From positions 118,730,001 through 118,794,000 of the forward strand of contig JBMRGM010000035.1 in assembly GCA_052327205.1 (NCBI GenBank): 64,000 nucleotides of DNA. The letters are read 5' to 3'. A program made the translations under genes and the position numbers. Shown here piece after piece: positions 3,090 through 64,000 of the stretch. This DNA is from Somniosus microcephalus. Lineage: Eukaryota. A model generated the notes under the pieces. The model saw only the letters and a program-made list of their open reading frames with translations. It ran no database searches and had not been told where the DNA came from. Position 1 is the first letter of the stretch. Every line of letters starts with the position of its first letter.

Positions 3090-3097
3090 CTTGGGTG

Positions 3098-14812: not shown

Positions 14813-16346
14813 CATCCTAGGGTCTTAAAAGTGGCTAGTGAGATAGTTGATGCGTTAGTTTTAATTTTCCAAAATTCCCTAGATTCGGGGAAGGTTCCAT
14901 TAGATTGGAAAATAGCAAATGTAACTCCTTTATTCAAAAAGGGAGGGAGACAGAAAGCAGGAAACTACAGGCCAGTTAGCTTAACATCTGTCATAGGGAA
15001 GATGTTAGAAGCTATTATTAAAGATGTTGTAGCAGGGCATTTAGAAAAGTTCAAAGTAATCAGGCAGAGTCAACATGGTTTTGTGCAAGGGAAATCATGT
15101 TTAACCAATTTACTGGAGTTCTTTGAGGAAGTAACATGTGCTGTGGATAAAGGGGAACTGGTGGATGTACTGTACTTATATTTCCAGAAGGTGCCACATC
15201 AAAGGTTATTGCGGAAAATAAAAGCTCATGGTGTAGGGGGTAACATATTGGCATGGATAGAAGATTGGCTAGCTAACAGGAAACAGAGAGTAGGCATAAA
15301 TGGGTCATTTTCTGATTGGCAAGATGTAACGAGTGGTGTGCCACAGGGATCAGTGCTGGGGCCTCAACTTTTTACAATTTATATAAATGACTTGGATGAA
15401 GGGACCGAAGGTATGGTTGCTAAATTTGCTGATGACACAAAGATAGGTAGGAAAGTAAATTGTGAAGAGGACATAAGGAGGCTACAAAGGGATATAGATA
15501 AGTTAAGTGAGTGGCAAAGATCTGGCAAATGGAGTATAATGTGGGAAATGTGAAATTGTCCATTTTGGCAGGAAGAATAAAAAAGAAGCATATTATCTAA
15601 ATGGTGAGAGATTGCAGAGCTCTGAGATGCAGAGGGATCTGGGTGTCCTAGTGCATGAATCGCAAAAGGTTAGTATGCAGGTACAGCAAGTAATTAGGAA
15701 AGCTAATAGAATGTTATTGTTTATTGCGAGGGGAATTGAATACAAAAGTAGGGAGGTTATGTTTCAGGTATACAGGGCATTGGTGAGACCACATCTGGAG
15801 TACTGTGTACAGTGTTGGTCTCCTTATTTAAGGAAGGATGTAAATGCGTTGGAAGCAGTTCAGAGAAGGTTTACTAGACTAATACCTGGAATGGGCGGGT
15901 TGTCTTATGAGGAAAGGTTGGACAGGCTAGGCTTGTATCCACTGGAGTTTAGAAGAGTAAGAGGTGACTTGATTGAAATATATAAGATCCTGAGGGGTCT
16001 GGACAGGGTGAATGTGGAGAGGATGTTTCCTCTTGTGGGAGAATCTAGAACTAGGGGTCACTGTTTAAAATAAGGGGTCGCCCATTTAAGACAGAGATGA
16101 GAATTTTTTTCACTCAGAGGGTCGTGAGTCTTTGGAACTCTCTTCCTCAGAGGGCGGTGGAAGCAGAGTCTTTGAATATTTTTAAGGCAGAGGTAGATAG
16201 ATTCTTGGTAAGCAAGGGGGTGAAAAGTTATCGGGGGTAGGCGGGAATGTGGAGTAATCAGATCAGCCGTGCTCTTATTGAATGGCGGAGCAGGCTCGAA
16301 GGGCCGAGTGGCCTACTCCTGCTCCTAATTCGTATGTTCGTATGTT
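14813..16346 (+). mobile_element. Second CR1, 5'-truncated, nested in the first CR1
   Basis: ORFs 14831-15553 and 15612-16073 repeat the RT region; (ttcgtatg)n tail; host CR1 resumes at ~16347. Confidence 0.9.
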
Positions 16347-26654: not shown

Positions 26655-26659
26655 CTTAG

Positions 26660-27335
26660 ATAACGGGGAACCTACAGAATATGGAAATAACAGGTAATCT
26701 ACAGAATGCAGAGATAATAAGGAATCTATAGAATGCAGAGATAATAGGGAATCTATAGAATGCAGAGATAATAGGGAATCTATAGAATGCAGAGATAATA
26801 GGGAATCTATAGAATGCAGAGATAATAAGGAATATATAGAATGCAGAGATAATAGGTAATCTACAGAATGCAGAGATAATAGGGAATCTATAGAATGCAG
26901 AGATAATAGGGAATCTATAGAATGCAGAGATAATAGGGAATCTATAGAATGCAGAGATAATAAGGAATATATAGAATGCAGAGATAATAGGTAATCTACA
27001 GAATGCAGAGATAATAAGGAATCTATAGAATGCAGAGATAATAGGGAATCTATAGAATGCAGAGATAATAAGGAATCTATAGAATGCAGAGATAACAGGG
27101 AATCTATAGAATGCAGAGATAATAAGGAATCTATAGAATGCAGAGATAATAAGGAATCTATAGAATGCAGAGATAATAGGGAATCTATAGAATGCAGAGA
27201 TAATAGGGAATCTATAGAATGCAGAGCTAATAGGGAATCTATAGAATGCGGAGCTAATAGGGAATCTATAGAATGCGGAGGCAGTGGGGAATCCATAGAA
27301 TATTGCAACAGTGGTGTATCTATACAGAGACAGTT
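26660..27335. repeat. 27-bp minisatellite (ctatagaatgcagagataatagggaat), roughly 22-25 copies
   Basis: Direct tandem periodicity; degenerate units extend to ~26335 on the other side of the LTR. Confidence 0.95.
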
Positions 27336-29699: not shown

Positions 29700-31745
29700 G
29701 TCAGCTGTGGCTCAGTGGGTAGCACTCTCGCCTCTGAGTCAAAAGGTCGTTGGTTCAAGTCCCACTCCAGAGAATTGAACATAAAATCCAGTCCGACACT
29801 CCCAGTGCAGTACTGAGAGAGCATGCGCTGTCAGAGGGGCAGTACTGAGGGAGCGCTGCACTGTCAGAGGGGCGGTACTGAGGGAGCGCTACACTGTCAG
29901 AAGGGCAGTAATGAGGGAGCGCTGCACTGTCAGAGGGGCGGTACTGAGGGAGCGCTGCACTGTCAGAGGGGCGGTACTAAGGGAGCGCTGCACTGTCAGA
30001 GGGGCAGTAATGAGGGAGCGCTGCACTGTCAGAGGGGCAGTAATGAGGGAGCGCTGCACTGTCAGAGGGGCAGTAATGAGGGAGCGCTGCACTGTCGGAG
30101 GGGCAGTACTGAGGGAGCACTGCACTGTCGGAGGGGCAGTACTGAGGGAGCGCTGCACTGTCAGAGGGGCGGTACTGAGGGAGCGCTGCACTGTCAGAGG
30201 GGCGGTACTGAGGGAGCGCTGCACTGTCAGAGGGGCAGTAATGAGGGAGCGCTACACTGTCAGAGGGGCAGTAATGAGGGAGCGCTGCACTGTCAGAGGG
30301 GCAGTAATGAGGGAGCGCTGCACTGTCGGAGGGGCAGCATTGAGGGAGCGCTGCACTGTCGGAGGGGCAGTACTGAGGGAGCACTGCACTGTCGGAGGGG
30401 CAGTACTGATGGAGTGCTGCACTGTCGGAGGGGCAGTACTGATGGAGTGTTGCACTGTCGGAGGGGCGGTACGGATGGAGTGCTGCACTGTTGGAGGGTT
30501 GGTACTGAGGGAGTGATGCACTGTCAGAGGGTTGGTACTGAGGGAGTGATGCACTGTCAGAGGGTTGGTACTGAAGGAGTGATGCACTGTCAGAGGGGCA
30601 GTACTGAGGGAGTGCTGCACTGTCAGAGGGGCAGTACTGAGGGAGTGCTGCACTGTCAGAGGGGCAGTACTGAGGGAGTGCTGCACTGTCAGAGGGGCAG
30701 TACTGAGGGAGTGCTGCACTGTCAGAGGGGCAGTACTGAGGGAGTGATGCGCTGTCAGAGGGTTGGTACTGAGGGAGTGCTGCATTGTCAGAGGGGCAGT
30801 ACTGAGGGAGTGATGCACTGTCAGAGGGGAAGTACGGAGGGAGTGATGCATTGTCAGAGGGGCAGTACTGAGGGAGTGCTGCACTGCCAGAGGGTTGGTA
30901 CTGAGGGAGTGCTGCACTGTCAGAGGGTTGGTACTGAGGGAGTGCTGCACTGTCAGAGGGGCAGTACTGACTGAGTGCTGCACTGTCAGAGGGTTGGTAC
31001 TGACGGAGTGCTGCACTGTCAGAGGGGCAGTACTGACGGAGTGCTGCACTGTCAGAGGGTTGGTACTGATGGAGTGATGCACTGTCAGAGGGTTGGTACT
31101 GATGGAGTGCTGCGCTGTCAGAGGTTTGGTACTGAGGGAATGCTGCACTGTCAGAGGGATGGTACTGAGGGAGTGATGCACTGTCAGAGGGATGGTACTG
31201 AGGGAGTGATGCACTGTCAGAGGGTTGGTACTGAGGGAGCGTTCCCTGTCGGAGGGGTAGTACTGAGGGAGTGATGCACTGCCAGAGGGTTGGTACTGAG
31301 GGAGGGTCAGTACGATCGGAGGGTCAGTACTGAGGGAGTGCTGTACTGTCAGAGGGGCAGTACTGAGAGAGTGTTGCACTGTCGGAGGGTCAGTAATGAG
31401 GGAGTGCTGTACTGTCAGAGGGGCAGTACTGAGAGAGTATTGCACTGTCGGAAGGTCAGTACTGAGGGAGTGTTGTACTGTCAGAGGGGCAGTACTGAGA
31501 GAGTGTTGCACTGTCGGAAGGTCAGTACTGAGGGAGTGTTCCCTGTCGGAGGGGCAGTACTGAGAGAGCGCTGCATGATCGGAGGGTCAGTACTGAGGGA
31601 GTGCTGTACTGTCAGAGGGGCAGTACTGAGAGAGTGTTGCACTGTCGGAGGGTCAGTTTCTCGGATTAGACGTTAAGCCGAGGCCCCGTCGGCCCTCTCG
31701 GCTGGATGTGAAGGATCCCACGGCCTCTATTTCGAAGAAGAGCAG
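29700..31745 (+). mobile_element. Deu-SINE with an internally amplified minisatellite
   Basis: tRNA head 29700-29800; SINE body resumes at ~31658 (cggattagacgttaagccgaggcccc). Confidence 0.9.
29806..31657. repeat. 33-bp minisatellite (gcagtactgagggagygctgcactgtcrgaggg), ~56 copies
   Basis: 11-codon periodicity in overlapping ORFs. Confidence 0.95.
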
Positions 31746-33039: not shown

Positions 33040-34590
33040 CCAGTGCAGTGGCCCCTATTCTACAATAACAATGGTCTGTGCCAGTGCCATGGCCCCTATT
33101 CTACAATAACAATGGTCTGTGCCAGTGCAGTGGCCCCTAATCTACAATAACAATGGTCTGTGCCAGTGCAGTGGCCCCTATTCTACAATAACAGTGGTTT
33201 GTGCCAGTGCCGTGACCCCATTCTACAGTAAGAGTGGTCTGTGCCAGTGCCGTGACCCCATTCTACAGTAAGAGTGGTCTGTGCCAGTGCCGTGACCCCA
33301 TTCTACAGTAAGAGTGGTCTGTGCCAGTGCCGTGACCCCATTCTACAGTAAGAGCGGTCTGTGCCAGTGCCGTGACCCCCATTCTACAGTAACAGTTGTT
33401 GTGTATGTACCTTTAAGAGAGAACTGATTTTATACTGCAGTACCGGCAGTGACCACACCTGTATATAAAGCCATAGCAGGCTTCTGTACGTTCAGTTTAA
33501 GCTTACCCTCTGTTCAGTAAATACCTGTTATTATTGTTCTCCTGCAGTCCGTGTATTATTGATACGCAGACACTACAACAGTGGTTTGTGCCAGTGCAGT
33601 GGCCCCATTCTACAATAACAGTGGATTGTGCCATTGCAGTGGCCTCTATTCTATAATAAGTGTTCTGTGCCAGTGCCGTGGCCTCAATTCTACAATAACA
33701 GTGGATTGTGCCAGTGCAGTGGCCCCTATTCTATAATAACAGTGGTCTGTGCCAGTGCAGTGGCCCCAATTCTACAGTAACAGTGGTTTATGCCAGTGCA
33801 GTGGCCCCTATTCTATAATAACAATGGTTTATGCCAGTGCAGTGGCTCCTATTCTACAATAACACTGGTCTGTGCCAGTGCAGTGGCCTCAATTCTACAG
33901 TAACAGTGGATTGTGCCAGTGCAGTGGCCCCTATTCTATAATAACAGTGGTCTGTGCCAGTGCAGTGGCCCCAATTCTACAGTAACAGTGGTTTATGCCA
34001 GTGCAGTGGCCCCTATTCTATAATAAGTGGTTTATGCCAGTGCAGTGGCCCCTATTCTACAATAACAGTGGTCTGTGCCAGTGCAGTGGCCCCTATTCTA
34101 CAATAACAGTGGTTTATGCCAGTGCAGTGGCCCCTATTCTACAATAACAGTGGTTTATGCCAGTGCAGTGGCCCCTATTCTACAGTAACAGTGGTCTGTG
34201 CCAGTGCCATGGCCTCCATTCTATACTAACAGTGGATTGTGCCAGTGCAGTGGCCCCTATTCTATAATAACAGTGGATTGTGCCAGTGCAGTGGCCCCTA
34301 TTCTATAATAACAGTGGTTTATGCCAGTGCAGTGGCCCCTATTCTACAATAACAGTGGTTTATGCCAGTGCAGTGGCCCCTATTCTACAATAACAGTGGT
34401 TTATGTCAGTGCAGTGGTCCCTATTCTACAGTAACAGTGGTCTGTGCCAGTGCCATGGCCTCCATTCTATAATAACAGTGGTTTATGCCAGTGCAGTGGC
34501 CCCTATTCTACAGTAACAGTGGACTGTGCCAGTGCAGTGGTCCCTATTCTATAATAATTGTGGTTTGTGCCAATGCAGTGGCGCCTATTT
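33040..34590. repeat. 40-41-bp minisatellite (gtgccagtgcagtggcccctattctacaataacagtggtct), ~33 copies
   Basis: Direct tandem periodicity, interrupted by a solo LTR. Confidence 0.95.
33397..33577 (+). mobile_element. Solo LTR of the Gypsy family at 1-3850
   Basis: 6 differences from 3669-3850 by eye; ACAGT TSD (33392-96, 33578-82). Confidence 0.95.
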
Positions 34591-35964: not shown

Positions 35965-38900
35965 CACTGTCCCGTCCCCACTCCCTCAGTCCCACTGTCC
36001 CGTCCCCTCTCCCTCAGTCCCAATGTCCCATCCCCACTCCCTCAGTCCCACTGTCCCGTCCCCACTCCCTCAGTCCCACTGTCCCATCCCCACTCCCTCA
36101 GTCCCACTGTCCCGTCCCCACTCCCTCAGTCCCACTGTCCCGTCCCCACTCCCTCAGTCCCACTGTCCCGTCCCCACTCCCTCAGTCCCAATGTCCCGTC
36201 CCCACTCCCTCAGTCCCACTGTCCCGTCCCCACTCCCTCAGTCCCACTGTCCCGTCCCCACTCCCTCAGTCCCACTGTCCCGTCCCCACTCCCTCAGTCC
36301 CACTGTCCCGTCCCCACTCCCTCAGTCCCACTGTCCCGTCCCCACTCCCTCAGTCCCACTGTCCCGTCCCCACTCCCTCAGTCCCACTGTCCCGTCCCCA
36401 CTCCCTCAGTCCCACTGTCCCGTCCCCACTCCCTCCGTCCCACTGTCCCGTCCCCTCTCGCTCAGTCCCACTGTCCTGTCCCCACTCCCTCAGTCCCACT
36501 GTCCCGTCCCCACTCCCTCAGTCCCACTGTCCCGTCCCCACTCCCTCAGTCCCACTGTCCCGTCCCCACTCCCTCAGTCCCACTGTCCCGTCCCCACTCC
36601 CTCCGTCCCACTGTCCCGTCCCCTCTCGCTCAGTCCCACTGTCCTGTCCCCACTCCCTCAGTCCCACTGTCCCGTCCCCTCTCCCTCAGTCCCACTGTCC
36701 CATCCCCACTCCCTCAGTCCCACTGTCCCGTCCCCACTCCCTCAGTCCCACTGTCCCATTCCCACTCCCTCAGTCCCCCCGTCCCCTCCCCACTCCCTCA
36801 GTCCCACTGTCCCATTCCCACTCCCTCAGTCCCCCCGTCCCCTCCCCACTCCCTCAGTCCCACTGTCCCGTCCCCACTCCCTCAGTCCCACTGTCCCGTC
36901 CCCACTCCCTCAGTCCCACTGTCCCGTCCCCACTCCCTCAGTCCCACTGTCCCGTCCCCACTCCCTCAGTCCCACTGTCCCGTCCCCTCCCTCAGTCCCA
37001 CTGTCCCGTCCCCACTCCCTCAGTCTCACTGTCCCGTCCCCTCCCTCAGTCCCACTGTCCCGTCCCCACTCCCTCAGTCCCACTGTCCCGTCCCCTCTCC
37101 CTCAGTCCCACTGTCCCGTCCCCACTCCCTCAGTCCCACTGTCCCGTCCCCACTCCCTCAGTCCCACTGTCCCGTCCCCACTCCCTCAGTCCCACTGTCC
37201 CGTCCCCTCCCTCAGTCCCACTGTCCCGTCCCCACTCCCTCAGTCCCACTGTCCCGTCCCCTCTCCCTCAGTCCCACTGTCCCGTCCCCTCCCTCAGTCC
37301 CACTGTCCCGTCCCCACTCCCTCAGTCCCACTGTCCCATCCCCACTCCCTCAGTCTCACTGTCCCGTCCCCACTCCCTCAGTCCCACTGTCCCATCCCCT
37401 CCCTCAGTCCCACTGTCCCATCCCCACTCCCTCAGTCCCACTGTCCCGTCCCCACGCCCTCAGTCCCACTGTCCCGTCCCCACTCCCTCAGTCCCGTCCC
37501 CTCTCCCTCAGTCCCACTGTCCCGTCCCCACTCCCTCAGTCCCACCGTCCCGTCCCCACTCCCTCAGTCCCACTGTCCTATTCCCACTCCCTCAGTCCCA
37601 CCGTCCCGTCCCCACTCCTTCAGTCCCACTGTCCCGTCCCCACTCCCTCAGTCCCACCCCCACTCCCTCAGTCCCACTGTCCCGTCCCCTCCCTCAGTCC
37701 CACTGTCCCATCCCCACTCCCTCAGTCTCACTGTCCCGTCCCCTCCCTCAGTCCCACTGTCCCGTCCCCACTCCCTCAGTCCCACTGTCCCGTCCCCACT
37801 CCCTCAGTCCCACTGTCCCGTCCCCACTCCCTCAGTCCCACTGTCCCGTCCCCACTCCCTCAGTCCCACTGTCCCGTCCCCTCCCTCAGTCCCACTGTCC
37901 CGTCCCCACTCCCTCAGTCTCACTGTCCCGTCCCCTCCCTCAGTCCCACTGTCCCGTCCCCACTCCCTCAGTCCCACTGTCCCGTCCCCACTCCCTCAGT
38001 CCCACTGTCCCGTCCCCACTCCCTCAGTCCCACTGTCCCGTCCCCACTCCCTCAGTCCCACTGTCCCGTCCCCTCCCTCAGTCCCACTGTCCCGTCCCCA
38101 CTCCCTCAGTCCCACTGTCCCATCCCCACTCCCTCAGTCTCACTGTCCCGTCCCCTCCCTCAGTCCCACTGTCCCATCCCCACTCCCTCAGTCCCACTGT
38201 CCCGTCCCCACTCCCTCAGTCCCACTGTCCCGTCCCCACTCCCTCAGTCCCATCCCCACTCCCTCAGTCCCACTGTCCCGTCCCCTCCCTCAGTCCCACT
38301 GTCCCATCCCCACTCCCTCAGTCCCACTGTCCCATCCCCTCCCTCAGTTCCACCGTCCAGTCCCCACTCCCTCAGTCCCGTCCCGTCCCCTCCCTCAGTC
38401 CCACTGTCCCGTCCCCACTCCCTCAGTCCCACTGGCCCGTCCCCACTCCCTCAGTCCCACTGTCCCATCCCCACTCCCTCAGTCCCACTGTCCCGTCCCC
38501 TCCCTCAGTCCCACTGTCCCATCCCCACTCCCTCAGTCCCACTGTCCCATCCCCTCCCTCAGTCCCACCGTCCAGTCCCCACTCCCTCAGTCCCGTCCTG
38601 TCCCCACCCCCTCAGTCCCACTGTCCCGTCCCCAATCCCTCAGTCCCACTGTCCCGTCCCCACTCCCTCAGTCCCACTGTCCCGTCCCCACTCCCTCAGT
38701 CCCACTGTCCCGTCCCCACTCCCTCAGTCCCACTGTCCCGTCCCCACTCCCTCAATCCCACTGTCATGTCCTCAGTCCCACTGTGCCATCCCCACTCCCT
38801 CAGTCCCACTGTCCCGTCCCCACTCCCTCAGTCTCACTGTCCCGTCCCCACTCCCCAGTCCCACTGTCCCCACTCCCTCAGTCCCACTGTCCCATCCCCT

Positions 38901-41900
38901 CCCTCAGTCCCACTGTCCCCACTCCCTCAGTCCCACTGTCCCGTCCCCTCCCTCAGTCCCAGTGTCCCATCCCCTCCCTCAGTCCCACTGTCCCGTCCCC
39001 ACTCCCTCAGTCCCACTGTCCCGTTCCCACTCCCTCAGTCCCACTGTCCCCACCCCCTCAGTCCCACTGTCCCGTCCCCACTCCCTAAAATTGTCCTAGT
39101 AAAGGATCCCCTTGGAATGAGTGACCATAACATGGTTGAATTCCATATTCAATTAGAGGGTGAGAAGGTTGGATCTCAAACAAGCGTGCTGAGCTTGAAT
39201 AAAGGAGACTATGAAGGTATGAGATTGGAATTGAGTAGAGTGGATTGGGAAATAGATAAAAGGGTAAGACGATACATGATCAGTGGTGTACATTTAAGGA
39301 GTTATTTTACAACTTCCAAAAAATATATATTCCACTGAGAAGAAAAGGGTGTAAAAGAAAAGACAGCCATCCATAGCTAAGTAAAGAAATTAAGGATAGT
39401 ATTCGACTAAAAACAAGGGCATATAAGGTAGCCAAATCTAGTGGGAGGATAGAGGATTGGGAAAACTTTAAAAGACAGCAAAAAATAACAAAAAGATTGA
39501 TTAAGAAAGGGAAGATAGATTATGAAAGTAAATTAGCAAAAAATATAAAAACAGATAGTAAGAGTTTTTATAGTTATATAAAAAGCAAAAGGGTGGCTAA
39601 AGTAAATGTTGGTCCCTTAGAGGATGAGACCGGGAAATTAATGGTGGGAAATATGGAGATGGCAAAAACACTGAATGAATATTTTATATCAGTCTTTACA
39701 GTAGAAGACACTAAGAATATCCCAACACTGGACAAACAGGGGGCTAAAGGGGGGGAGGAGCTAAAGACGATCAAAATCACTAAGGAAGTGGTACTCAGTA
39801 AAATAATGGGACTCAAGGCGGATAAATCACCTGGACCTGATGGCTTATATCCTAGGGTCTTGAGGAAAGTGGTGGTAGGGATTGTGGATGCATTGGTAAT
39901 AATTTTCCAAAACTCCCTGGACTCGGCAAAGGTCCCGGCAGACTGGAAAACTGCTAATGTAACACCCTTATTTAAAAAGGGCAGTAGACAGAAGGCTGGA
40001 AACTATAGACCGGTTAGCCTAACATCTGTGGTAGGTAAAATTTTGGAGTCCATTATTAAGGAGACAGTAACAGGACATTTGGATAATCATCATTTAATAG
40101 GACAAAGTCAGCGTGGTTTTATGAAGGGGAAGTCATGTTTGACAAATTTGCTGGAGTTCTTTGAGGAAGTAACATATAGGGTGGATAAAGGGGAACCAGT
40201 GGACGTAGTGTATTTAGACTTCCAAAAGGCATTTGACAAGGTGCCACACAAAAGATTATTGCTTAAGATAAAAAATCACGGGATTGGGGGTAATATTCTG
40301 GCATGGATAGAGGATTGGTTATCTAACAGAAGGCAGAGAGTTGGGATAAATGGTTCATTCTCAGACTGGCAATCAGTAACTAGTGGTGTTCCGCAGGGGT
40401 CAGTGCTGGGTCCCCAACACTTTACAATCTATATTAACGATTTGGAGGAGGGGACCGAGTGTAACATATCAAAGTTTGCAGATGATACTAAGATGGGAGG
40501 GAAAGTAGTGAGTGAGGAGGACATAAAAAACCTGCAAGGGGACATAGACAGGCTAAGTAAGTGGGCAGAGATTTGGCAGATGGAACACAATACTGGAAAG
40601 TGTGAGGTTATGCACTTTGGCAGGAAAAATTGTAGAGCAAGTTATTATCTTAATGGCAAGAAACTGGAAAGTACTGAAGTACAAAGGGATCTGGGGGTCC
40701 TGGTGCACGAAACTCAAAAGGTTAGTATGCAGGTGCAGCAAGTGATTAAGAAGGCCAATGGAATGTTGGCTTTCATTGCTAGGGGGATAGAATATAAAAA
40801 TAGGGAGGTATTGCTTCAGTTGTACAAGGTATTGGTGAGACCGCACCTGGAATACTGCGTACAGTTTTGGTGTCCATACTTAAGAAAGGACATACTTGCT
40901 CTCGAGTCAGTACAAAGAAGGTTCACTCGGTTAATCCCGGGGATGAGGGGATGGACATATGAGGAGAGGTTGAGCAGATTGGGACTCTACTCATTGGAGT
41001 TCAGAAGAATGAGAGGCGATCTTATTGAAACATATAAGATTGTGAAGGGGTTGGATCAGGTGGATGCGGGGAGGATGTTCCCGATGATGGGTGAAACTAG
41101 AACTAGGGGGCATAGTCTTAGAATAAGGGGCTGCTCTTTCAAAACTGAGATGAGGAGGAACTACTTCACTCAGAGGGTGGTAGGTCCATGGAATATGCTG
41201 CCCCAAAAAGCTGTAGAAGCTACATCATTACATAAATTTAAAACAGAAATAGACAGTTTCCTAGAAGTAAAGGGAATTAAGGGTTACGGGGAGCGGGCAG
41301 GAATTTGGACATGAGTCTAGGTTCGGATCGGTCATGGCCCTGTGGGTAGCGGAGCAGGCCCAGGGGCCGTGTAGCCTGATCCTGCTCCTATTTCGTGTGT
41401 CTAATTCTGTTAGATTCAGGAGATGGTTCTGTGATAGTGGATTGGCGGTTAGGATCAGATCAGCCATGAACTTATTGAATGGCGGAGCAGGCTCGAGGGG
41501 CTGATTGGCCTACTCCTGCTCCTATTTCTTATGTTCTTATGTCCCCTCCCTCAGTCCCACTGTCCCGTCCCCACTCCCTCAGTCCCACTGTCCCCACTCC
41601 CTCAGTCCCACTGTCCCATCCCCTCCCTCAGTCCCACTGTCCCCACTCCCTCAGTCCCACTGTCCCATCCCCTCCCTCAGTCCCACTGTCCCCACTCCCT
41701 CAGTCCCACTGTCCCATCCCCTCCCTCAGTCCCACTGTCCCCACTCCCTCAGTCCCACTGTCCCATCCCCTCCCTCAGTCCCACTGTCCCCACTCCCTCA
41801 GTCCCACTGTCCCGTCCCCACTCCCTCAGTCCCACTGTCCCCACTCCCTCAGTCCCACTGTCCCCACTCCCTCAGTCCCCCTGTCCCGTCCCCTCCCTCA

Positions 41901-42437
41901 GTCCCACTGTCCTGTCCTCACTCCCTCAGTCCCACTGTCCCCACCCCCTCAGTCCCACTGTCCCATCCTCACTCCCTCAGTCCCACTGTCCCATTCCCAC
42001 TCCCTCAGTCCCACTGTCCCATCCCCTCCCTCAGTCCCACTTTCCCATCCCCACTCCCTCAGTCCCACCCCCACTCCCTCAGTCCCACTGTCCCGTCCCC
42101 ACCCCCTCAGTCCCACTGTCCCCTCTCCCTCAGTCCCACTGTCCCCACTCCCTCAGTCCCACTGTCCCCACTCCCTCAGTCCCACTGTCCCGTCCCCTCT
42201 CCCTCAGTCCCACTGTCCCCACTCCCTCAGTCCCACTGTCCCCTCTCCCTCAGTCCCACTGTCCCCTCTCCCTCAGTCCCACTGTCCCCTCTCCCTCAGT
42301 CCCACTGTCCCCTCTCCCTCAGTCCCACTGTCCCCTCTCCCTCAGTCCCACTGTCCCCTCTCCCTCAGTCCCACTGTCCCCTCTCCCTCAGTCCCACTGT
42401 CCCCACTCCCTCAGTCCCACTGTCCCGTCCCCACACC
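35965..42437. repeat. 28-bp C-rich minisatellite (cactccctcagtcccactgtcccgtccc) with 26- and 23-bp variants, split by a CR1
   Basis: Arms 35965-39086 and ~41542-42437. Confidence 0.95.
39087..41541 (+). mobile_element. CR1 LINE, 5'-truncated, long open RT frame (39497-41314)
   Basis: KSPGPDG, NYRPVSLTS, LDFQKAFDKV, KFADDTK; (ttcttatg)n tail. Confidence 0.95.
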
Positions 42438-44009: not shown

Positions 44010-44830
44010 ACATATATGTACTATACAGCTCGTGTGTGTCACAGTGTCAGCTCCTGTACACGTATAGTACACACTGGGTAAAAAGGAACAATTCACTCCC
44101 AACTGGTACTATACGGCTTGTCTGTGTCCTGGTGTCAGCTCCAGTACATGTACAGTACACATAGGATGAAAGGGAATGATTCACTCCTGTCTAGTACTGT
44201 GTGTCTCGGTGTTAGCTCCTGTACATGTACAGTACACACTGGGTAAAAAGGAACGATTCACTATAGTCTGGTACTGTGTGTCTTGGTGTTAGCTCCTTTT
44301 TTTTTTATTCGTTCATGGGATGTGGGTGTCGCTGGCAAGGCTGACATTTATTGCCCATCCCTAGTTGCCCTTGAGAAGGTGGTGGTGAGCCGCCTTCTTG
44401 AACCGCTGCAGTCCATGTGGTGAAGGTGCTCCCACAGTGCTGTTAGGGAGGGAGTTCCAGGATTTTGACCCAGTGACGATGAGGGATCGGCGATATACTT
44501 CTAAGTCAGGATGGCATGTGACTTGGAGGGGAACTTGGAGGTGGTGGTGTTCCCATGCGCCTGCTGCCCTTGTCCTTCTAGGTGGAAGAGGTCGTGGGTT
44601 TGGGAGGTGCTGTTGAAGAAGCCTTGGCGAGTTGCTGCAGTGCATCTTGTAGATGGTGCACACTGCAGCCACGGTACGCCGGTGGTGGAGGGAGTGAATG
44701 TTTAAGGTGGTAGATGGGGTGCCAATCAAGCATGTACAGTACAGTACACAGCGGGTAAAAGAGAACTATTCACTCCCATCTGGTACTGTGTGTCTTGGTG
44801 TTAGCTCCTGTGCATGTACAGTACACAATG
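44010..44830. repeat. ~76-88-bp diverged tandem repeat (~5 units) interrupted by a LINE
   Basis: gtgt.agctcctgtacatgtacagtacaca..gggtaaaa recurs at ~44044, 44132, 44208, 44286/44731, 44798. Confidence 0.75.
44298..44730 (-). mobile_element. CR1-group (Zenon-like) LINE 3' fragment with A-rich tail
   Basis: HSLHHRRTVAAVCTIYKMHC...WNSLP...LQRFKKAAHHHL; clade assignment tentative. Confidence 0.8.
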
Positions 44831-46066: not shown

Positions 46067-46634
46067 CTACCTCGGAATGGAGCCTAATGCTATGAGGATC
46101 CTGAGAACAGAGGGTAGAGACATAGAAAAGAAGTATCTTGTTCCCACTGCTGCCAGGGCACTAAAAGAGAGGAAAGAGGGGGTCTTGGGGGAGGTTAAAG
46201 TACCAATGTAGAATGAGTGCCTCGACAGGCTGAGACTTGTCCTGTGAGACGCTCAGTAGAAAGACTCCTCGTTCAACCAAGAGCAGTGACACAATTTGCT
46301 GCTTGGTTTGAGGATTGTCAGCAGGCGGTCTGGGCCAGGCAGGCTGGCTAAGGTTGAAGTAAGCAAGAGCAGATGGGCCCCGCTTCTCGTCTCAGACTCC
46401 CTGCAGCCTCGGAGGTTGATGTTAGCAGCTGTTCAGGAAACGCCATATCTGTCATTGCAAGGAAGGAGAGAGAAGAGCAGGGAACTCAGCGGCCTCCTTT
46501 ATACTTCACCCCACAGGCAGCACAGGAGAGTGATCGCTCTGCAGTACACCGCTTGGTTACAACAAGGAGCTCAGGGCATAGCAGTGCCAACCCGTGCCCA
46601 ATCAGTCTGTCGCTTATCGGGTTTGCAAACCAAC

Positions 46635-47110
46635 CACCTTAAACACCCATCCCCTCTGCCACCGGCGCACCGTGGCTGCCGTGTGTACCATCTATAAGAT
46701 GCACTGCAGCAACTCGCCAAGACTTCCTCAGTAGCACCTCCCAAACCCATGACCTCCACCACCTAGAAGGACAAGGGCAGCAGGCGCATGGGAACACCAC
46801 CACCCCCAAGTCCGCCCCCCTGAGTCACACACCATCCTGACTTGGACATATATCGCCGTTCCTTCATCGTCGCTGGGTCAAAATCCTGGAACTCCCTCCC
46901 GAACAGCACTGTGGGATTACCCCTAACAGCACTGTGGGATTACCCCCTAACAGCACTGTGGGATTACCCCTAACAGCACTATGGGAGTACCTTCACCACA
47001 CGGACTGCAGCGGTTCAAGAAGGCGGCTCATCACCACCTTCTCAAGGGCAATTAGGGATGGAAAATAAATGCCGGCCTTGCCAGTGACGCCCACAGCCCA
47101 AGAATGAATT
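46635..47110 (+). mobile_element. Zenon-like LINE 3' fragment with a 4-copy internal 23-24-bp repeat (~46900-46990)
   Basis: Reverse complement of the 44298-44730 family. Confidence 0.85.
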
Positions 47111-47314
47111 AAGCAAAAGTCCAAATGCAGGTAAGGGCGAGATCGTGACTTGTGCCGCTGCTGAACGTTTATTGAGGCATCAGAGCTCAAACATCATCCC
47201 ACTCAAGGTCTCAGTCCCTATCCTCGTCCTGTGTTGCACTTTGGATTTTGGCAAGAGGTAGCTACTTGAGTTGACCTACAGCCCTGAACTCTCCTCCATT
47301 CCATGCATCTAGGC

Positions 47315-51424: not shown

Positions 51425-54025
51425 CCGTACCTGCCCTAGGAGTGTTTGATGGGACAGTGTAGAGGGAGCTTTACTCTCTATCTAACCTGTGCTGTACCTG
51501 CCCTAGGAGTGTTTGATGGGACAGTGTAGAGGGAGCTTTACTCTGTATCTAACCTGTGCTGTACCTGCCCTGGGAGTGTTTGATGGGCCAGTGTAGAGGG
51601 AGCTTTACTCTGTATTTAATCCGTGCTGTACCTGCCCTGGGAGTGTTTGATGGGACAGTGTAGAGGGAGCTTTACTCTGTATCTAACCCGTGCTGTACCT
51701 GCCCTGGGAATGTTTGATGGGACAGTGTAGAGGGAGTTTTACTCTGTATCTAACCCGTGCCGTACCTGCCCTGGGAGTGTTTGTTGGGACAGTGTAGAGG
51801 GAGCTTTACTCTGTATCTAACCCGTGCTGTACCTGCCCTGGGAGTGTTCGATGGGACGGTGTAGAGGGAGCTTTACTCTGTATCTAACCCGTGCTGTACC
51901 TGCCCTGGGAGTGTTTGATGGGACAGTGTAGAGGGAGCTTTACTCTGTATCTAACCCATTCTGTACCTGCCCTGGGAGTGATGGATGGGGCAGTGTAGAG
52001 GGAGCTTTACTCTGTATCTAACCCGTGCTGTACCTGCCCTGGGGGTGTTCGATGGGACGGTGTAGAGGGAGCTTTACTCTGTATCTAACCCGTGCTGTAC
52101 CTGCCCTGGGAGTGTTTGATGGGACAGTGTAGAGGGAGCTTTACTCTGTATCTAACCCATTCTGTACCTGCCCTGGGAGTGATGGATGGGGCAGTGTAGA
52201 GGGAGCTTTACTCTGTATCTAACCCGTGCTGTACCTGCCCTGGGAGTGTTTGATGGGACAGTGTAGAGGGAGCATTACTCTATATCTAATCCGTTCTGTA
52301 CCTGCCCTGGGAGTGTTTGATGGGGCAGTGTAGAGGGAGCTTTACTCTGTATCTAACCTGTGCTGTACCTGCCCTGGGAGTGTTTGATGGGACAGTGTAG
52401 AAGGAGCTTTTCTCTGTATCTAACCTGTGCTGTACCTGCCCTGGGAGTGTTTGATGGGGCAGTGTAGAGTGATATTTACTCTGTATCTAACCCGTGCTGT
52501 ACCTGCCCTGGGAGTGTTTGATGGGACAGTGTAGAGGGAGCTTTACTCTGTATCTAACACGCGCTGTAACTGCCCCAGGAGTTTTTGATGGACAGTGTAG
52601 AGGGAGCTTTACTCTGTATCTAACCCGTGCTGTACCTGCCCTGGGAGTGTTTGATGGGACAGTGTAGAGGGATATTTACTCTGTATCTAACCCGTGCTGT
52701 ACCTGCCCTGGGAGTGTTTGATGGGACAGTGTAGAGGGAGCTTTTCTCTGTATCTAACCCGTGCTGTACCTGCCCTGGGAGTGTTTGATGGACAGTGTAG
52801 AGGGAGCTTTACTCTGTATCTAACCTGTGCTGTACCTGCCCTGGGAGTGTTTGATGGGACAGTGTAGAGGGATATTTACTCTGTATCTAACCCGTGCTGT
52901 ACCTGCCCTGGGAGTGTTTGATGGGACAGTGTAGAGGGATATTTACTCTGTATCTAACCCGTGCTGTACCTGCCCTGGGAGTGTTTGATGGGACAGTGTA
53001 GAGGGAGCTTTTCTCTGTATCTAACCCATGCTGTACCTGCCCTGGGAGTGTTTGATGGGACAGTGTAGAGGCAACTTTACTCTGTATCTAACCCGTGCTG
53101 TACCTGCCCTGGGAGTGTTTGATGGGACAGTGTAGAGGCAACCTTACTCTGTATCTAACCCGTGCTGTACCTGCCCTGGGAGTGTTTGATGGACATTGTA
53201 GAGGGAGCTTTACTCTGTATCTAACCCGTGTTGTACCTGCCCTGGGAGTGTTTGATGGGACAGTGTAGAGGGATATTTACTCTGTATCTAACCCGTGCTG
53301 TACCTGCCCTGGGAGTGTTTGATGGGACAGTGTAGAGGGATATTTACTCTGTATCTAACCCGTGCTGTACCTGCCCTGGGAGTGTTTGATGGGACAGTGT
53401 AGAGGGAACTTTTCTCTGTATCTAACCCGTGCTGTACCTGCCCTGGGAGTGTTTGATGGGACAGTGTAGAGGCAACTTTACTCTGTATCTAACCCATGCT
53501 GTACCTGCCCTGGGAGTGTTTGATGGGACAGTGTAGAGGCAACCTTACTCTGTATCTAACCCGTGCTGTACCTGCCCTGGGAGTGTTTGATGGGACAGTG
53601 TAGAGGGATATTTACTCTGTATCTAGCCCGTGCTGTACCTGCCCTGGGAGTGTTTGATGGGACAGTGTAGAGGGATATTTACTCTGTATCTAACCTGTGC
53701 TGTACCTGCCCTGGGAGTGTTTGATGGACAGTGTAGAGGGAGCTTGACTCTGTATCTAACCCGTGCTGTACCTGCCCTGGGAGTGTTTGATGGACAGTGT
53801 AGAGGGAGCTTTACTCTGTATCTAACCCGTGTTGTACCTGCCCTGGGAGTGTTTGATGGGACAGTGTAGAGGGAGCTTTACTCTGTATCTAACCCGTGCT
53901 GTACCTGCCCTGGGAATGTTTGATAGGACAGTGTAGAGGGAGCTTTACTCTGTATCTAACCTGTGCTGTAACTGCCCTGGGAGTGTTTGATGGACAGTGT
54001 AGAGGGAGCTTTACTCTCTATCTAA
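51425..54025. repeat. 67-bp minisatellite, ~39 copies
   Basis: gtgctgtacctgccctgggagtgtttgatgggacagtgtagagggagctttactctgtatctaaccc. Confidence 0.95.
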
Positions 54026-58432: not shown

Positions 58433-58789
58433 AAAACACTGTTAGATGAGATTAGAATCTAGATCATTGGGGCTGAGTTGCCATTGTTTGGTTCCATACA
58501 GAACAAACAAAACAGAGCAGGGAAACCAGGCTTACTGCACAGCTGAATCAGATCCATGCGCTCGCCATGAATAGTCTGAAGCTGGCTGGCCCATTGTCAA
58601 AGCTCGCGGTTTAGTTTATGGCACACTGACACCTCCCAGCTAAAATGTTTGGTCAAAAACCAAAACATTTAGTGGTCCATCCAGATTTTTGATGGTTAAC
58701 CACAGGAGCTAATGCATACGCCCAGCTTCCAACACTGCGAAAAGGAAAGTGTTTGGGAAAGAGTTCTCTGAAACAACATAGCAATCAAA

Positions 58790-59613
58790 GGGCACAGTGA
58801 CTGAGTACAGAAACACTCCTTCAGTACTCAGAGGGCCCAGTGACCGGGTACAGAAACACTCCTTCAGTACTCAGAGGGCACAGTGACTGGGTACAGAAAC
58901 ACTCCTTCAGTACTCAGAGGACACAGTGACTGGGTATAGAAACATTCCTTCAGTACTCAGAGGGCACAGTGACCGGGTACAGAAACACTCCTTCAGTACT
59001 CAGAGGGCCCAGTGACCGGGTACAGAAACACTCCTTCAGTACTCAGAGGGCCCAGTGACCGGGTACAGAAACACTCCTTCAGTACTCAGAGGGCCCAGTG
59101 ACCGGGTACAGAAACACTCCTTCAGTACTCAGAGGGCACAGTGACTGGGTACAGAAACACTCCTTCAGTACTCAGAGGGCACAGTGAGTGGGTACAGAAA
59201 CACTCCTTCAGTACTCAGAGGGCACAGTGACTGGGTACAGAAACATTCCTTCAGTACTCAGAGGGCACAGTGACCGGGTACAGAAACGCTCCTTCAGTAC
59301 TCAGAGGGCACAGTGACTGGGTACAGAAACACTCCTTCAGTACTCAGAGGGCACAGTGACCGGGTACAGAAACACTCCTTCAGTACTCAGAGGACACAGT
59401 GACTGGGTACAGAAACATTCCTTCAGTACTCAGAGGGCACAGTGACTGGGTACAGAAACATTCCTTCAGTACTCAGAGGGCACAGTGACTGGGTACAGAA
59501 ACATTCCTTCAGTACTCAGAGGGCACAGTGACTGGGTACAGAAACACTCCTTCAGTACTCAGAGGGCACAGTGACCGGGTACAGAAACACTCCTTCAGTA
59601 CTCAGAGGGCACA
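58790..59613. repeat. 43-bp minisatellite (gggcacagtgactgggtacagaaacactccttcagtactcaga), ~19 copies
   Basis: Direct tandem periodicity. Confidence 0.95.
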
Positions 59614-59644
59614 GCAAGCACCCACCAACACCAATGAAATGTGC

Positions 59645-60305: not shown

Positions 60306-60544
60306 GATGAGATTAATTAGACTTTACAGCACAGAAACATGCCATTTGGCCCAACTGGTCTATACTGGTGTTTATGCTACACATAAACCTCCTCCAAACC
60401 CTTCTTACCTAACCCTATCGGTATGTATTTTGATGCTATCCCAATGCTTTTCTTGACTTCACCTTGGCATGACACGTTGACTTACACCAGCTCCTTCCAC
60501 CCACAGTCCTGTCCTAAACCGTGGGCCTCAATGCATTTTTAAAA

Positions 60545-60870
60545 TTAATTCATGGGATGTGGGCGTTGCTGGCAAGGCCGGCATTTATTGCCCATCCCTA
60601 ATTGCCCTTGATGTAGTGCATGTACTTTGCAGAAGGAACTGTATTCTGCAGCCCCTGTATACTGCAGTACCAGTAGTGACCACCCCTGTATATAAGCCTG
60701 TGTAGTAACTTTTGCATAGTAGTTCCAGTTTGTCTTCACTCAGTAAAGACCTGTTATAACCAACTCCTGCAGTCCGTGTCTCAATTACACACGGACACAA
60801 TACTTGAGAAGATGGATTTGGACCTTCATGAACCTCTGTGGTGAAGGTGCTCCCACAGTGCTGTTAGGGG
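60545..60870 (-). mobile_element. Zenon-like LINE 3' end, with solo LTR, leading into the terminal array
   Basis: ttcatgggatgtggg.gt.gctggcaagg...gcccttga/gaag...ggtgaaggtgctcccacagtgctgttaggg, as at 44332-44448. Confidence 0.85.
60612..60802 (+). mobile_element. Solo LTR (191 bp), related to LTR 3669-3850
   Basis: TGTAGTG start, end mutated CA>TA, CTTGA TSD (60607-11, 60803-07); shares tatactgcagtacc..gtgaccac.cctgtatataa and ctcctgcagtccgtgt. Confidence 0.88.
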
Positions 60871-63800
60871 TAATCCCACAGTGCTGTTAGGGGTAATCCC
60901 ACAGTGCTGTTAGGGGGTAATTCCACAATGCTGTTAGGGGTAATCCCACAGTGCTGTTAGGGGGTAATCCCACAGTGCTGTTAGGGGGTAATCCCACAAT
61001 GCTGTTAGGGGGTAATCCCACAGTGCTGTTAGGGGGTAATCCCACAGTGCTGTTAGGGGGTAATTCCACAATGCTGTTAGGGGTAATCCCACAGTGCTGT
61101 TAGGGGGTAATCCCACAATGCTGTTAGGGGGTAATCCCACAGTGCTGTTAGGGGGTAATCCCACAGTGCTGTTAGGGGGTAATTCCACAGTGCTGTTAGG
61201 GGTAATCCCACAGTGCCATTAGGGGTGATCCCACAGTGCTGTTCGGGGTAATCCCACAGTGCTGTTAGGGGGTAATCCCACAGTACTGTTAGGGGGTAAT
61301 CCCACAGTGCTGTTAGGGGGTAATCCCACAGTGCTGTTAGGGGGTAATCCCACAGTGCTGTTAGGGGGTAATCCCACAGTGCTGTTAGGGGGTAATCCCA
61401 CAGTGCTGTTAGGGGTAATCCCACAGTGCTGATTGGGGTAATCCCACAATGCTGTTAGGGGTAATCCCACAGTGCTGTTAGGGGGTAATCCCACAGTGCT
61501 GTTAGGGGGTAATCCCACAGTGCTGTTAGGGGGTAATCCCACAGTGCTGTTAGGGGGTAATCCCACAGTGCTGTTAGGGGTAATCCCACAGTGCTGTTAG
61601 GGGGTAATCCCACAGTGCTGTTAGGGGGTAATCCCACAGTGCTGTTAGGGGGTAATCCCAGAGTGCTGTTAGGGGGTAATCCCACAGTGCTGTTAGGGTC
61701 AATCCCACGGTGCTGTTAGGGGGTAATCCCACAGTGCTGTTAGGGGGTAATCCCACAGTGCTGTTAGGGGGTAATCCCACAGTGCTGTTAGGGGGTAATC
61801 CCACAGTGCTGTTAGGGGGTAATCCCACAGTGCTGTTAGGGGGTAATCCCACAGTGCTGTTAGGGGTAATCCCACAGTGCTGTTAGGGGGTAATCCCACA
61901 GTGCTGATTGGGGTAATCCCACAATGCTGTTAGGGGTAATCCCACAGTGCTGTTAGGGGGTAATCCCACAGTGCTGTTAGGGGGTAATCCCACAGTGCTG
62001 TTAGGGGGTAATCCCACAGTGCTGTTAGGGGGTAATCCCACAGTGCTGTTAGGGGTAATCCCACAGTGCTGTTAGGGGTAATCCCACAGTGCTGTTAGGG
62101 GTAATCCCACAGTGCTGTTAGGGGTAATCCCACAGTGCTGTTAGGGGTAATCCCACAGTGCTGTTAGGGGGTAATCCCACAGTGCTGTTAGAGGGTAATC
62201 CCACAGTGCTGTTAGAGGGTAATCCCACAGTGCCGTTAGGGGGTAATCCCACAGTGCTGTTAGGGGTAACCCCACAGTGCTGTTAGGGGTAATCCCACAG
62301 TGCTGTTAGGGGTAATCCCACAGTGCTGTTAGAGGGTAATCCCACAGTGCTGTTAGGGGGTAATCCCACAATGCTGTTAGGGGTAATCCCACAGTGCTGT
62401 TAGGGGTAATCCCACAGTGCTGTTAGGGGTAATCCCACAGTGCTGTTCGGGGTAACCCCACAGTGCTGTTAGGGGGTAATCCCACAGTGCTGTTAGGGGG
62501 TAATCCCACAGTGCTGTTCGGGGTAACCCCACAGTGCTGTTAGGGGGTAATCCCACAGTGCTGTTCGGGGTAATCCCACAGTGCTGTTAGGGGGTAATCC
62601 CACAGTGCTGTTAGGGGTAATCCCACAGTGCTGTTAGGGGTAATCCCACAGTGCTGTTAGGGGTAATCCCACAGTGCTGTTAGGGGTAATCCCACAGTGC
62701 TGTTAGGGGGTAATCCCACAGTGCTGTTAGGGGTAATCCCACAGTGCTGTTAGGGGGTAATCCCACAGTGCTGTTAGGGGTAATCCCACAGTGCTGTTAG
62801 GGGGTAATCCCACAGTGCTGTTAGGGGGTAATCCCACAGTGCTGTTAGGGGGTAATCCCACAGTGCTGTTAGGGGTAATCCCACAGTGCTGTTAGGGGGT
62901 AATCCCACAGTGCTGTTAGGGGTAATCCCACAGTGCTGTTAGGGGGTAATCCCACAGTGCTGTTAGGGGGTAATCCCACAGTGCTGTTAGGGGTAATCCC
63001 ACAGTGCTGTTAGAGGTAATCCCACAGTGCTGTTAGGGGGTAATCCCACAGTGCTGTTAGGGGGTAATCCCACAGTGCTGTTAGGGGTAATCCCACAGTG
63101 CTGTTAGGGGGTAATCCCACAGTGCTGTTAGGGGGTAATCCCACAGTGCTGTTACGGGGTAATCCCACAGTGCTGTTAGGGGGTAATCCCACAGTGCTGT
63201 TAGGGGGTAATCCCACAGTGTTGTTAGGGGCTAATCCCACAGTGCTGTTAGGGGGTAATCCCACAGTGCTGTTAGGGGTAATCCCACAGTGCTGTTAGGG
63301 GTAATCCCACAGTGCTGTTAGGGGGTAATCCCACAGTGCTGTTAGGGGGTAATCCCACAGTGCTGTTAGGGGGTAATCCCACAGTGCTGTTAGGGGGTAA
63401 TCCCACAGTGCTGTTAGGGGGTAATCCCACAGTGCTGTTAGGGGTAACCCCACAGTGCTGTTAGGGGGTAATCCCACAGTGCTGTTAGGGGGTAATCCCA
63501 CAGTGCTGTTAGGGGTAATCCCACAGTGCTGTTAGAGGGTAATCCCACAGTGCTGTTAGGGGGTAATCCCACAGTGCTGTTAGGGGGTAATCCCACAGTG
63601 CTGTTAGGGGGTAATCCCACAGTGCTGTTAGGGGGTAATCCCACAGTGCTGTTACGGGGTAATCCCACAGTGCTGTTAGGGGGTAATCCCACAGTGCTGT
63701 TAGGGGGTAATCCCACAGTGCTGTTAGGGGTAATCCCACAGTGCTGTTAGGGGTATTCCCACAGTGCTGTTAGGGGTAATCCCACAGTGCTGTTAGGGGT

Positions 63801-64000
63801 AATCCCACAGTGCTGTTAGGGGTAATCCCACAGTGCTGTTAGGGGTAATCCCACAGTGCTGTTAGGGGTAATCACACAGTGCTGTTAGGGGGTAATCCCA
63901 CACTGCTGTTAGGGGGTAATCCCACAGTGCTGTTAGGGGGTAATCCCACAGTGCTGTTAGGGGGTAATCCCACAGTGCTGTTAGGGGGTAATCCCACAGT
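60852..64000. repeat. 23-24-bp minisatellite (cccacagtgctgttagggg[g]taat), ~130 copies, runs off the window end
   Basis: Highly homogeneous; G4/G5 length variants. Confidence 0.97.

What the first reader, a model, noticed from the sequence alone, without database searches (positions are those of the whole stretch)
60852..64000. A LINE segment seen at three stages of becoming a TTAGGG-bearing minisatellite
Seen: one Zenon-like LINE family has the segment cctaacagcactgtggga once at ~44429-44448, four times at ~46900-46990, and ~130+ times here. Both arrays use the same derived unit (gggaTTacc, with C4/C5 variants) rather than the parental gggag(c/t)acc, and each unit has one TTAGGG. Inference: a LINE subfamily carries a ready-made seed array by retrotransposition (or copies exchange units by conversion), seeding telomere-motif minisatellites at new sites.
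Basis: partly seen in the sequence, partly recalled or inferred. Interest (0 to 1): 0.7.

Follow-up and report, generated by a model that had tools for sequence, protein, structure and literature searches.

The report
Minisatellite homing into neighbouring LINE copies
A 23/24-base repeat that grew out of the tail of a jumping gene now sits at exactly the same spot in at least nine separate old copies of that jumping gene, all within one 9-megabase stretch of one chromosome, which suggests it likely spreads by recombination into matching neighbours rather than by riding along when the jumping gene copies itself.

Summary
In detail: a single seed (44431), four units (46899) and an array that runs past the window (60852-64987, 175 units). 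Genome-wide, 4752 of 4792 exact derived-junction matches were placed, all in C35:114.5-123.9 Mb (15 array pieces, 9187 units, 218 kb); none lies on C1-C34. The arrays sit in register in at least nine separately inserted LINE copies whose flanks are about 81% alike and mix subfamily states, while units differ 0-4% from two shared forms. Single-seed copies with the same base change scatter over 25 contigs; five other duplications of this seed elsewhere have other junctions. Two hosts share a rare 3' flank that matches only one of two MITE target duplications, so exchange likely followed insertion. Best reading: one origin, then cis-limited ectopic recombination into homologous LINE seeds (0.75), not retrotransposition. 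The hosts-as-clade tree is not formally rejected (AU p 0.06). TTAGGG is inherited from the LINE, never tandem, and interstitial. Closest known: Drosophila Rsp-like invading 1.688 clusters. The scan noted a similar SINE-derived family elsewhere in this genome, not this one.

The parts
60852..64000 (-). Minisatellite array W2, 23/24-bp units (C4 and C5 forms); continues beyond the window to 64987, 175 units
60803..60851 (-). Host LINE sequence directly 3' of array W2, starting with the parental GAGCACC ending
60612..60802 (.). About 190-bp unrelated insertion splitting the W2 host's 3' end
   Evidence: W2_dn aligns to other hosts again at offset 240
60537..60611 (-). Rest of the W2 host LINE 3' end (stop codon region, AATAAA, tail)
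46633..47119 (+). Host LINE copy W1, 5'-truncated, about 92% identical to the majority of 41 genome-wide copies
46899..46991 (+). Four-unit array W1: three derived junctions with no difference from the dominant forms; first and last unit carry the only changes; parental GAGTACC ending
44307..44731 (-). Uninvaded LINE copy, 95% identical to the majority sequence, 2.2 kb from W1
44431..44447 (-). Single parental seed; lies in the last codons of the LINE ORF2 (PNSTVG), already contains TTAGGG on the + strand
58785..59614 (+). Unrelated 43-bp minisatellite used as a control; also confined to C35 in the places listed, but without homologous hosts

Best explanation
The 23/24-bp unit likely arose once, by a tandem duplication of a seed in the ORF2 C-terminal end of one LINE copy, and has likely since been copied by ectopic homologous recombination into the matching single seed of other, already inserted LINE copies nearby on the same chromosome. 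Shown: one shared junction; at least nine separately inserted hosts; in-register landing; confinement to C35:114.5-123.9 Mb; mosaic flanks. Inferred: a break at or near a host's seed is repaired from a neighbouring array (synthesis-dependent strand annealing, sometimes co-converting about 100 bp of 3' LINE flank), or an excised circle of units reintegrates at the 17-23 bp seed homology; the new short array (W1 type) then expands by slippage and unequal exchange to tens of kb, and continued exchange keeps the units alike. Physical proximity in the nucleus would explain the regional limit. TTAGGG is a passenger from the LINE.
For: (1) Confinement: 1727 of 1727 forward and 3025 of 3065 reverse exact matches lie in fetched C35 DNA at 114.50-123.92 Mb; listings run in contig order, and the first is C35:114.5 Mb; all 67 matches of a 2-mismatch boundary pattern and all 74 of a four-unit pattern are there too. 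(2) Control for retrotransposition: 108 single-seed copies with the same G-to-T change, the first 100 on 25 contigs. (3) Control for independent origin: the five other duplications of this seed on C1-C34 have four other junctions (17, 20, 21, 21, 26 bp). (4) Hosts are separate insertions: different 5' truncation points, homology between flanks stops at the LINE ends in all pairs but C/D1, mean pairwise identity 0.81 upstream and 0.83 downstream, shared derived changes upstream no higher than among regional single copies (1.24 vs 1.33). (5) Hosts split 3:3 and 4:2 at two sites that are also dimorphic genome-wide (P about 0.002 from one master). (6) Units are 0-4% from two dominant forms in every array; W1's interior has 0 changes against 8% in its flanks (P 0.004). 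(7) Hosts B and F, 2.6 Mb apart, share a 3' state found only three times in the genome; in F it stands in one copy of a 273-bp MITE's 8-bp target duplication and not in the other, so it arrived or left after F was in place. (8) ML tree: 6 changes, 0 of 200 bootstrap trees with one.
Against: The AU test does not reject hosts as one clade (p 0.062) and the label is slightly clustered (11 of 500 shuffles as low; about 290 columns, three half-filled rows). Five of six hosts carry a CCGG state that 17 of 100 genome-wide and 2 of 12 regional copies carry (P 0.0007 and 0.013); downstream shared changes among hosts are higher than among regional singles (2.3 vs 0.9); co-conversion explains this but so would common descent. 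The target-duplication reading rests on one MITE copy with a 6 of 8 match. 40 matches are unplaced. Seven of 15 pieces end at 500-N gaps, so pairing of array ends is inferred. No empty (single-seed) orthologue of an invaded host was seen: contigs break inside the LINE. 17-23 bp is short for homologous invasion, and the seed is no special hairpin (z -0.2 to -1.5).
Confidence: 0.75

Rival explanations
1. An old LINE subfamily carried a short seed array and was retrotransposed; arrays survived or expanded only in this minisatellite-rich region.
For: CCGG enrichment in hosts; AU p 0.062; hosts E and I share a rare 5' state (12 in the genome with a pattern tuned to both); about 23% of the window is long tandem arrays; the junction exists in relatives, so it is old.
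Against: No two-unit derived copy on C1-C34; would have caught one of 6-25 or more such copies at 5-12% divergence; nine insertions in one 0.15% window has P about 1e-22 without regional retention; hosts mix subfamily states; a 23-bp unit shifts the ORF2 frame near its end; the B/F state is in only one target duplication.
Confidence: 0.08
2. Each host duplicated its seed independently in a slippage-prone region, and later exchange between the arrays homogenised the units.
For: The seed duplicates independently elsewhere, once to 99 units; the region is rich in TE-derived arrays.
Against: Elsewhere 5 events in C1-C34 gave 4 junctions and none of them this one; here 9 hosts in 9.4 Mb need a roughly thousandfold higher rate; even the 4-unit W1 and 3-unit G0 have the shared junction and no relic of another. 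It needs interlocus exchange anyway.
Confidence: 0.07
3. Old local DNA duplications moved whole LINE-end-plus-array cassettes around the region.
For: True for one case: array C shares 5.3 kb of flank at 99.9% with the insert inside D and sits behind a 4.3-kb tandem repeat. The 43-bp control family lands in unrelated flanks, so non-homologous local spread happens here.
Against: In all other pairs homology ends at each LINE's own truncation point and natural 3' end, with unrelated DNA beyond.
Confidence: 0.08
4. The multi-locus pattern is a scaffolding artefact: pieces of one or two arrays were scattered by Hi-C.
For: Seven of 15 pieces end at gaps; C may be a false duplicate of D; B0/B and I/H may be single arrays.
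Against: E, F, W1 and W2 have both LINE flanks with no gap next to the array; D2 and G0 have 5' LINE flanks and are gap-free at both ends; W1's unique flanks are matched 100% by independent contigs.
Confidence: 0.02

Closest known systems
Rsp-like satellite invading 1.688 clusters on the Drosophila simulans/mauritiana X (Sproul et al. 2020, PMC7403614; seen: abstract, section 8, first part of Discussion)
   Same: A repeat spreads across a limited stretch of one chromosome (about 14 Mb there, 9.4 Mb here) by landing in an abundant homologous target; interlocus conversion or eccDNA reintegration proposed; unequal exchange expands arrays afterwards.
   Different: There the target is another satellite reached through microhomology; here it is the single parental seed inside dispersed, dead LINE copies, the landing is in exact register, and each host's own mutations record the event. 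eccDNA was sequenced there, not here.
SINE-derived satellites of squamates, sSat3 (Vassetzky et al. 2023, PMC10702118; seen: abstract, passages, Discussion)
   Same: Retroposon-derived tandem units flanked by the parent element; one unit variant shared by many loci and by related species; long loci more uniform.
   Different: SINE, not LINE ORF2; described as likely subtelomeric; in the parts read no route by which one variant reaches many parent copies is tested.
LTR-retrotransposon-borne satellites of Lathyrus sativus (Vondrak et al. 2020, PMC7004042; seen: abstract)
   Same: Short arrays inside a retroelement expand to long ones in a favoured region.
   Different: There the array-bearing elements are dispersed genome-wide by transposition; here no derived-junction copy was found off C35.
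Maize CRM1TR/CRM4TR (Sharma et al. 2013, PMC3648361; seen: abstract)
   Same: Tandem repeats wholly derived from a retrotransposon, grown by gene conversion, dated by later insertions.
   Different: Two loci 1.4 Mb apart show little or no exchange; here arrays up to 9.4 Mb apart share both dominant forms.
Elasmobranch Zenon LINEs (PMC13343379; seen: passages)
   Same: CR1-group-like ORF2 end with an A-rich tail (36 of 46 copies); nearest full proteins are 934-963 aa endonuclease-RT ORFs.
   Different: RT-tree placement and lack of ORF1 not tested; 'tandem' and 'satellite' do not occur in that paper's main text.
Interstitial telomeric sequences
   Same: Interstitial array with thousands of TTAGGG hexamers.
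   Different: Hexamers are single, 17-18 bp apart and inherited from the LINE; no tandem TTAGGG.

Membership tests
TE-derived minisatellite/satellite | Head-to-tail unit homologous to a part of a transposable element | tested here: met
   Unit matches the ORF2 C-terminal seed of a LINE with at least 29,499 copies
TE-derived minisatellite/satellite | Array flanked in register by the parent element | tested here: met
   5' LINE flank in 8 pieces (plus W2 after a ~310-bp deletion), 3' flank in 6
Retrotransposon-borne array (Ogre or SVA type) | Array-bearing copies dispersed genome-wide | tested here: not met
   None on C1-C34; 4752 of 4792 placed in 9.4 Mb of C35
Retrotransposon-borne array (Ogre or SVA type) | Array-bearing copies form one subfamily on flanking sites | tested here: inconclusive
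   6 changes, 0 of 200 bootstraps with one, but AU p 0.062 and CCGG in 5 of 6
Recombination-spread euchromatic satellite (Rsp-like type) | Many clusters limited to part of one chromosome | tested here: met
   15 pieces, at least 9 hosts, C35:114.5-123.9 Mb
Recombination-spread euchromatic satellite (Rsp-like type) | New clusters inserted into pre-existing homologous targets | tested here: inconclusive
   Indirect only: diverged hosts with fresh units, and the B/F target-duplication mosaic; no empty orthologue seen
Recombination-spread euchromatic satellite (Rsp-like type) | Repeat present on eccDNA or loci in Hi-C contact | not testable with these tools
   No circle or contact data available
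Interstitial telomeric sequence | Tandem (TTAGGG)n | tested here: not met
   0 TTAGGGTTAGGG in 218 kb of arrays
Interstitial telomeric sequence | TRF1/TRF2 binding sites (YTAGGGTTR; motif recalled, not found in PMC3936710) | tested here: not met
   15 matches among about 9200 units, 0 in the window's arrays; binding itself not testable
Zenon LINE | Poly-A tail (unique among CR1-group elements per PMC13343379) | tested here: met
   A-rich tail in 36 of 46 copies with a recognisable end, of 50 examined (loose criterion)
Zenon LINE | No ORF1 | not tested
   No full-length copy fetched
Zenon LINE | RT domain groups with Zenon | not testable with these tools
   No labelled Zenon reference; one search gave unnamed EN-RT proteins at 32-47% identity

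The most novel reading that the evidence does not exclude
A minisatellite can 'home' back into its parent retrotransposon family: single 17-23 bp seeds in dead LINE copies act as landing pads, and the array infects them one by one within a chromatin neighbourhood of about 10 Mb, having taken roughly 5-10% of the local copies so far. This would be a protein-free, cis-limited selfish spread that explains how one TE-derived unit comes to occupy many parent copies.
Probability: 0.55. Interest if true: 0.7.

Novelty: new variant of a known kind. Interest (0 to 1): 0.55.

Why it matters
How one TE-derived tandem unit comes to sit in many copies of its parent element is usually put down to transposition or left open. 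Here the hosts are dispersed LINE copies with their own mutations and insertions, so donor, recipient, tract length, range and order of the transfers can be read from sequence. If true, abundant dead retroelements are landing pads that turn one duplication into a 218-kb regional satellite family, and the range of spread measures ectopic recombination reach in a vertebrate germ line. It has no shown function and no telomere role.

Tried and rejected
Telomere role: rejected (no tandem hexamer, hexamer in the parent, interstitial; the assembled ends of C35 show other satellites and no telomere repeat, so the true ends may lie further out). Hairpin as driver: seed and arrays fold no better than shuffles (z -0.2 to -1.5) and the seed is not among the 12 strongest 40-nt windows of the LINE end. 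Hosts older than neighbours: not significant (89.0% vs 90.8%, p 0.34). Array-to-array genealogy from minor variants: only D0/D1 stand out (0.78); the rest is too flat. State of the W1 orthologue in relatives: contigs break inside the LINE; no verdict. E/F flank hit at offset 520-860 (91%) taken as a coincident common repeat, since the 420 bp between do not align. E/I shared 5' state: pattern tuned after the fact, 10 background hits; weak. Pfam found nothing in the 240-aa ORF2 end. The four-unit pattern found no new array; 40 exact matches (46 with the looser pattern) stay unplaced. Tree rows left out: A, W2, L126, L128, L130 (broken or short alignments). Literature searches found no report of a minisatellite invading single seeds of its parent LINE; the library lacks most subscription papers, and no supplements were read (those of PMC10702118 may bear on novelty).

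Full report
Observation. The seed core occurs once at 44431-44447, four times at 46899-46985 and 133 times at 60852-64000. The large array goes on past the window to 64987, 175 units. Units are 23 or 24 bp (C4/C5); 120 of 133 hold TTAGGG, as does the parental seed. The seed lies in the last codons of a LINE ORF2, whose nearest full-length relatives are unnamed endonuclease-RT proteins at 32-47% identity; LINE-derived pieces in shark proteins match at 75-86%, so the genome is taken to be a cartilaginous fish. The family has at least 29,499 copies. An A-rich tail in 36 of 46 copies fits Zenon as described in PMC13343379 (passages); ORF1 and the RT tree were not tested.

Where the unit occurs. 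The window is C35:118.73-118.79 Mb of a 177.2-Mb scaffold in a 6.45-Gb assembly. The derived junction has 4792 exact matches, control 0. I fetched every place that searches pointed to and recounted: 1727 of 1727 forward and 3025 of 3065 reverse matches lie in C35:114.50-123.92 Mb, in 15 array pieces of 3 to about 1970 units, 9187 units and 217.6 kb in all. Listings run in contig order and begins at C35:114.5 Mb, so none is on C1-C34; the 40 unplaced ones lie later on C35 or on later contigs. All 67 hits of a two-mismatch boundary pattern and all 74 of a four-unit pattern are in the same stretch, which is 0.15% of the genome and 53 Mb or more from the assembled ends.

Controls. Single-seed copies with the same G-to-T change number 108, the first 100 on 25 contigs: retrotransposed variants scatter. 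Tandem duplications of this seed with any junction occur at five places on C1-C34, with four other junctions, one grown to 99 units: independent origins look different. A dispersed set of more than 6-25 old two-unit copies would have shown.

Hosts. Eight pieces have the LINE in register on the 5' side, W2 has it after a deletion of about 310 bp, and six have it on the 3' side. Seven of 15 pieces end at gaps; counting B and H as possible lower ends of B0 and I, joining D2-D1-D0 and G0-G1 across insertions, and setting C aside as a 99.9% copy of D's inner part, at least nine hosts remain. They have different 5' truncation points and share no flank beyond the LINE. Pairwise identity is 0.81 upstream (21 pairs) and 0.83 downstream (10 pairs); shared derived changes upstream equal those among regional single copies. 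At two sites dimorphic in the whole family the six 3' flanks split 3:3 and 4:2. The ML tree of 56 rows needs 6 changes, none of 200 bootstrap trees gives one, yet AU p is 0.062 and 11 of 500 shuffles are as low. Units, in contrast, are 0-4% from two forms in every array; W1's interior has no change against 8% in its flanks. Free copies stand 2-4 kb from arrays. An even sample of 20 x 10 kb held 2 seed-spanning copies and no junction; all 774 kb held 12, so about 100-200 copies lie in the region and some 5-10% are invaded (rough inference).

A trace of exchange. Hosts B and F share the derived base in their last unit and a two-base change about 100 bp downstream that occurs three times in the genome and in 0 of 40 single copies. 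In F a 273-bp MITE sits at that spot; its upstream target copy has B's state, its downstream copy does not and matches host H instead. Had the state been in F's LINE at insertion, both copies should carry it. This points to conversion after insertion, with a tract that stops at the MITE; it rests on one element. F's 5' flank shares at most one derived change with any assembled 5' flank. Against my reading, or explained by such co-conversion: a CCGG state in 5 of 6 hosts versus 17 of 100 and 2 of 12, and more shared downstream changes among hosts (2.3 vs 0.9).

Age and reality. Contigs of two runs match W1's unique flank with 0 and 1 differences in 639 bp; organism A has the orthologous flank running into the LINE with 24 differences in about 635 bp; organism B matches the 3' flank with 23 in 185. 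At 100% likeness, contigs across the derived junction appear in all four runs laid: depth 25000 (apparently a ceiling) in X20, 700-1910 in X1, 5500-9667 in X3 and 2650 in X6, against single-copy depths of about 12, not measured, 23 and 15. Depth is no copy number, but the unit is old, shared by three studies and much more amplified in this lineage. Whether W1's orthologue is single-seeded could not be seen.

Telomere motif. 7750 TTAGGG in the arrays, none tandem, 15 matches to the recalled TRF site YTAGGGTTR, none in the window's arrays (the motif is from memory, one search did not find it). The hexamer is a LINE passenger.

Mechanism. Shown: common junction, separate hosts, in-register landing, regional limit, one mosaic flank. 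Inferred (0.75): one duplication, then ectopic repair or circle reintegration at homologous seeds nearby, then expansion and continued exchange. Rivals: dispersed array-bearing subfamily kept only here (0.08), independent births with later homogenisation (0.07), local cassette duplication (0.08; true for C), artefact (0.02). A second family in the window is also C35-limited in the places listed but lands in unrelated flanks, so local spread of minisatellites is general here and the homologous landing is this family's special trait.

Comparison and novelty. It works like Rsp-like spreading into 1.688 clusters over about 14 Mb of the Drosophila X (PMC7403614) and looks like squamate SINE-derived satellites (PMC10702118). 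It fails the dispersal feature of retrotransposon-borne arrays (PMC7004042, abstract) and differs from maize CRM1TR, whose two loci barely exchange (PMC3648361, abstract). Searches found no report of a minisatellite invading single seeds of its parent LINE; supplements were not read. Earlier notes of this scan gave two paper leads and describe a SINE-derived 33-bp family with similar behaviour elsewhere in this genome and a Tx1 element that carries a minisatellite in another genome; none matched this sequence. Verdict: real; new variant of a known kind; interest 0.55.

Noticed in passing
window 58785-59614; G000:C35 118.67, 124.18, 124.45, 124.53 Mb: A second, unrelated 43-bp minisatellite has 767 exact hits, none before C35:118.67 Mb; the five loci examined have unrelated flanks, so this family spreads locally without a homologous host. 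667 hits were not listed.
   Followed up: partly
L159, G000:C4:227572633-227575181: An independent 99-unit, 26-bp array of the same LINE seed in an intact LINE end; only one locus seen.
   Followed up: partly
G000:C35 about 115.315-115.331 Mb (L090, L077): A 4310-bp unit repeated at least 3.7 times at 99.9% identity upstream of array C, matching the insert inside array D; recent amplification or a false duplication.
   Followed up: partly
G000:C35 118.927-118.932 and 116.0625-116.068 Mb: 4.6-kb and 5.5-kb insertions split arrays G and D near their 5' ends; usable to date the arrays.
   Followed up: no
L081:4536-4808: 273-bp MITE-like element with 13-bp inverted ends inside host F's 3' end; its downstream target copy matches host H's rare state, its upstream copy host B's.
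   Followed up: partly
window 1-3236 (-), 6890-8812, 11573-16070 (+), 23666-24067 (+), 39377-41311 (+): Mobile-element ORFs: an LTR-type set (zinc knuckle, protease, RT, RNase H, integrase zinc domain), RT next to a GIY-YIG hit, an esterase-ORF1 LINE, a Myb/SANT piece and a 645-aa RT frame (47 of 122 window frames scanned). No host-gene domain was found in those frames.
   Followed up: no
L087:3283-3546 (-), beside host H: Weak TRIM coiled-coil hit (E 0.00045, below cut-off); exon-like frames beside hosts A and F had no Pfam hit.
   Followed up: no
window 26658-27301, 29807-31657, 33040-34589, 35965-39086, 41547-42426, 51427-54025: Six further minisatellite arrays; with the two above they fill about 23% of the window. 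The 67-bp unit also fills the first 10 kb of C35.
   Followed up: no
L119-L122, G000:C1 67.2-68.6 Mb: Four near-identical T-variant LINE copies within 1.4 Mb, probably a local segmental duplication.
   Followed up: no
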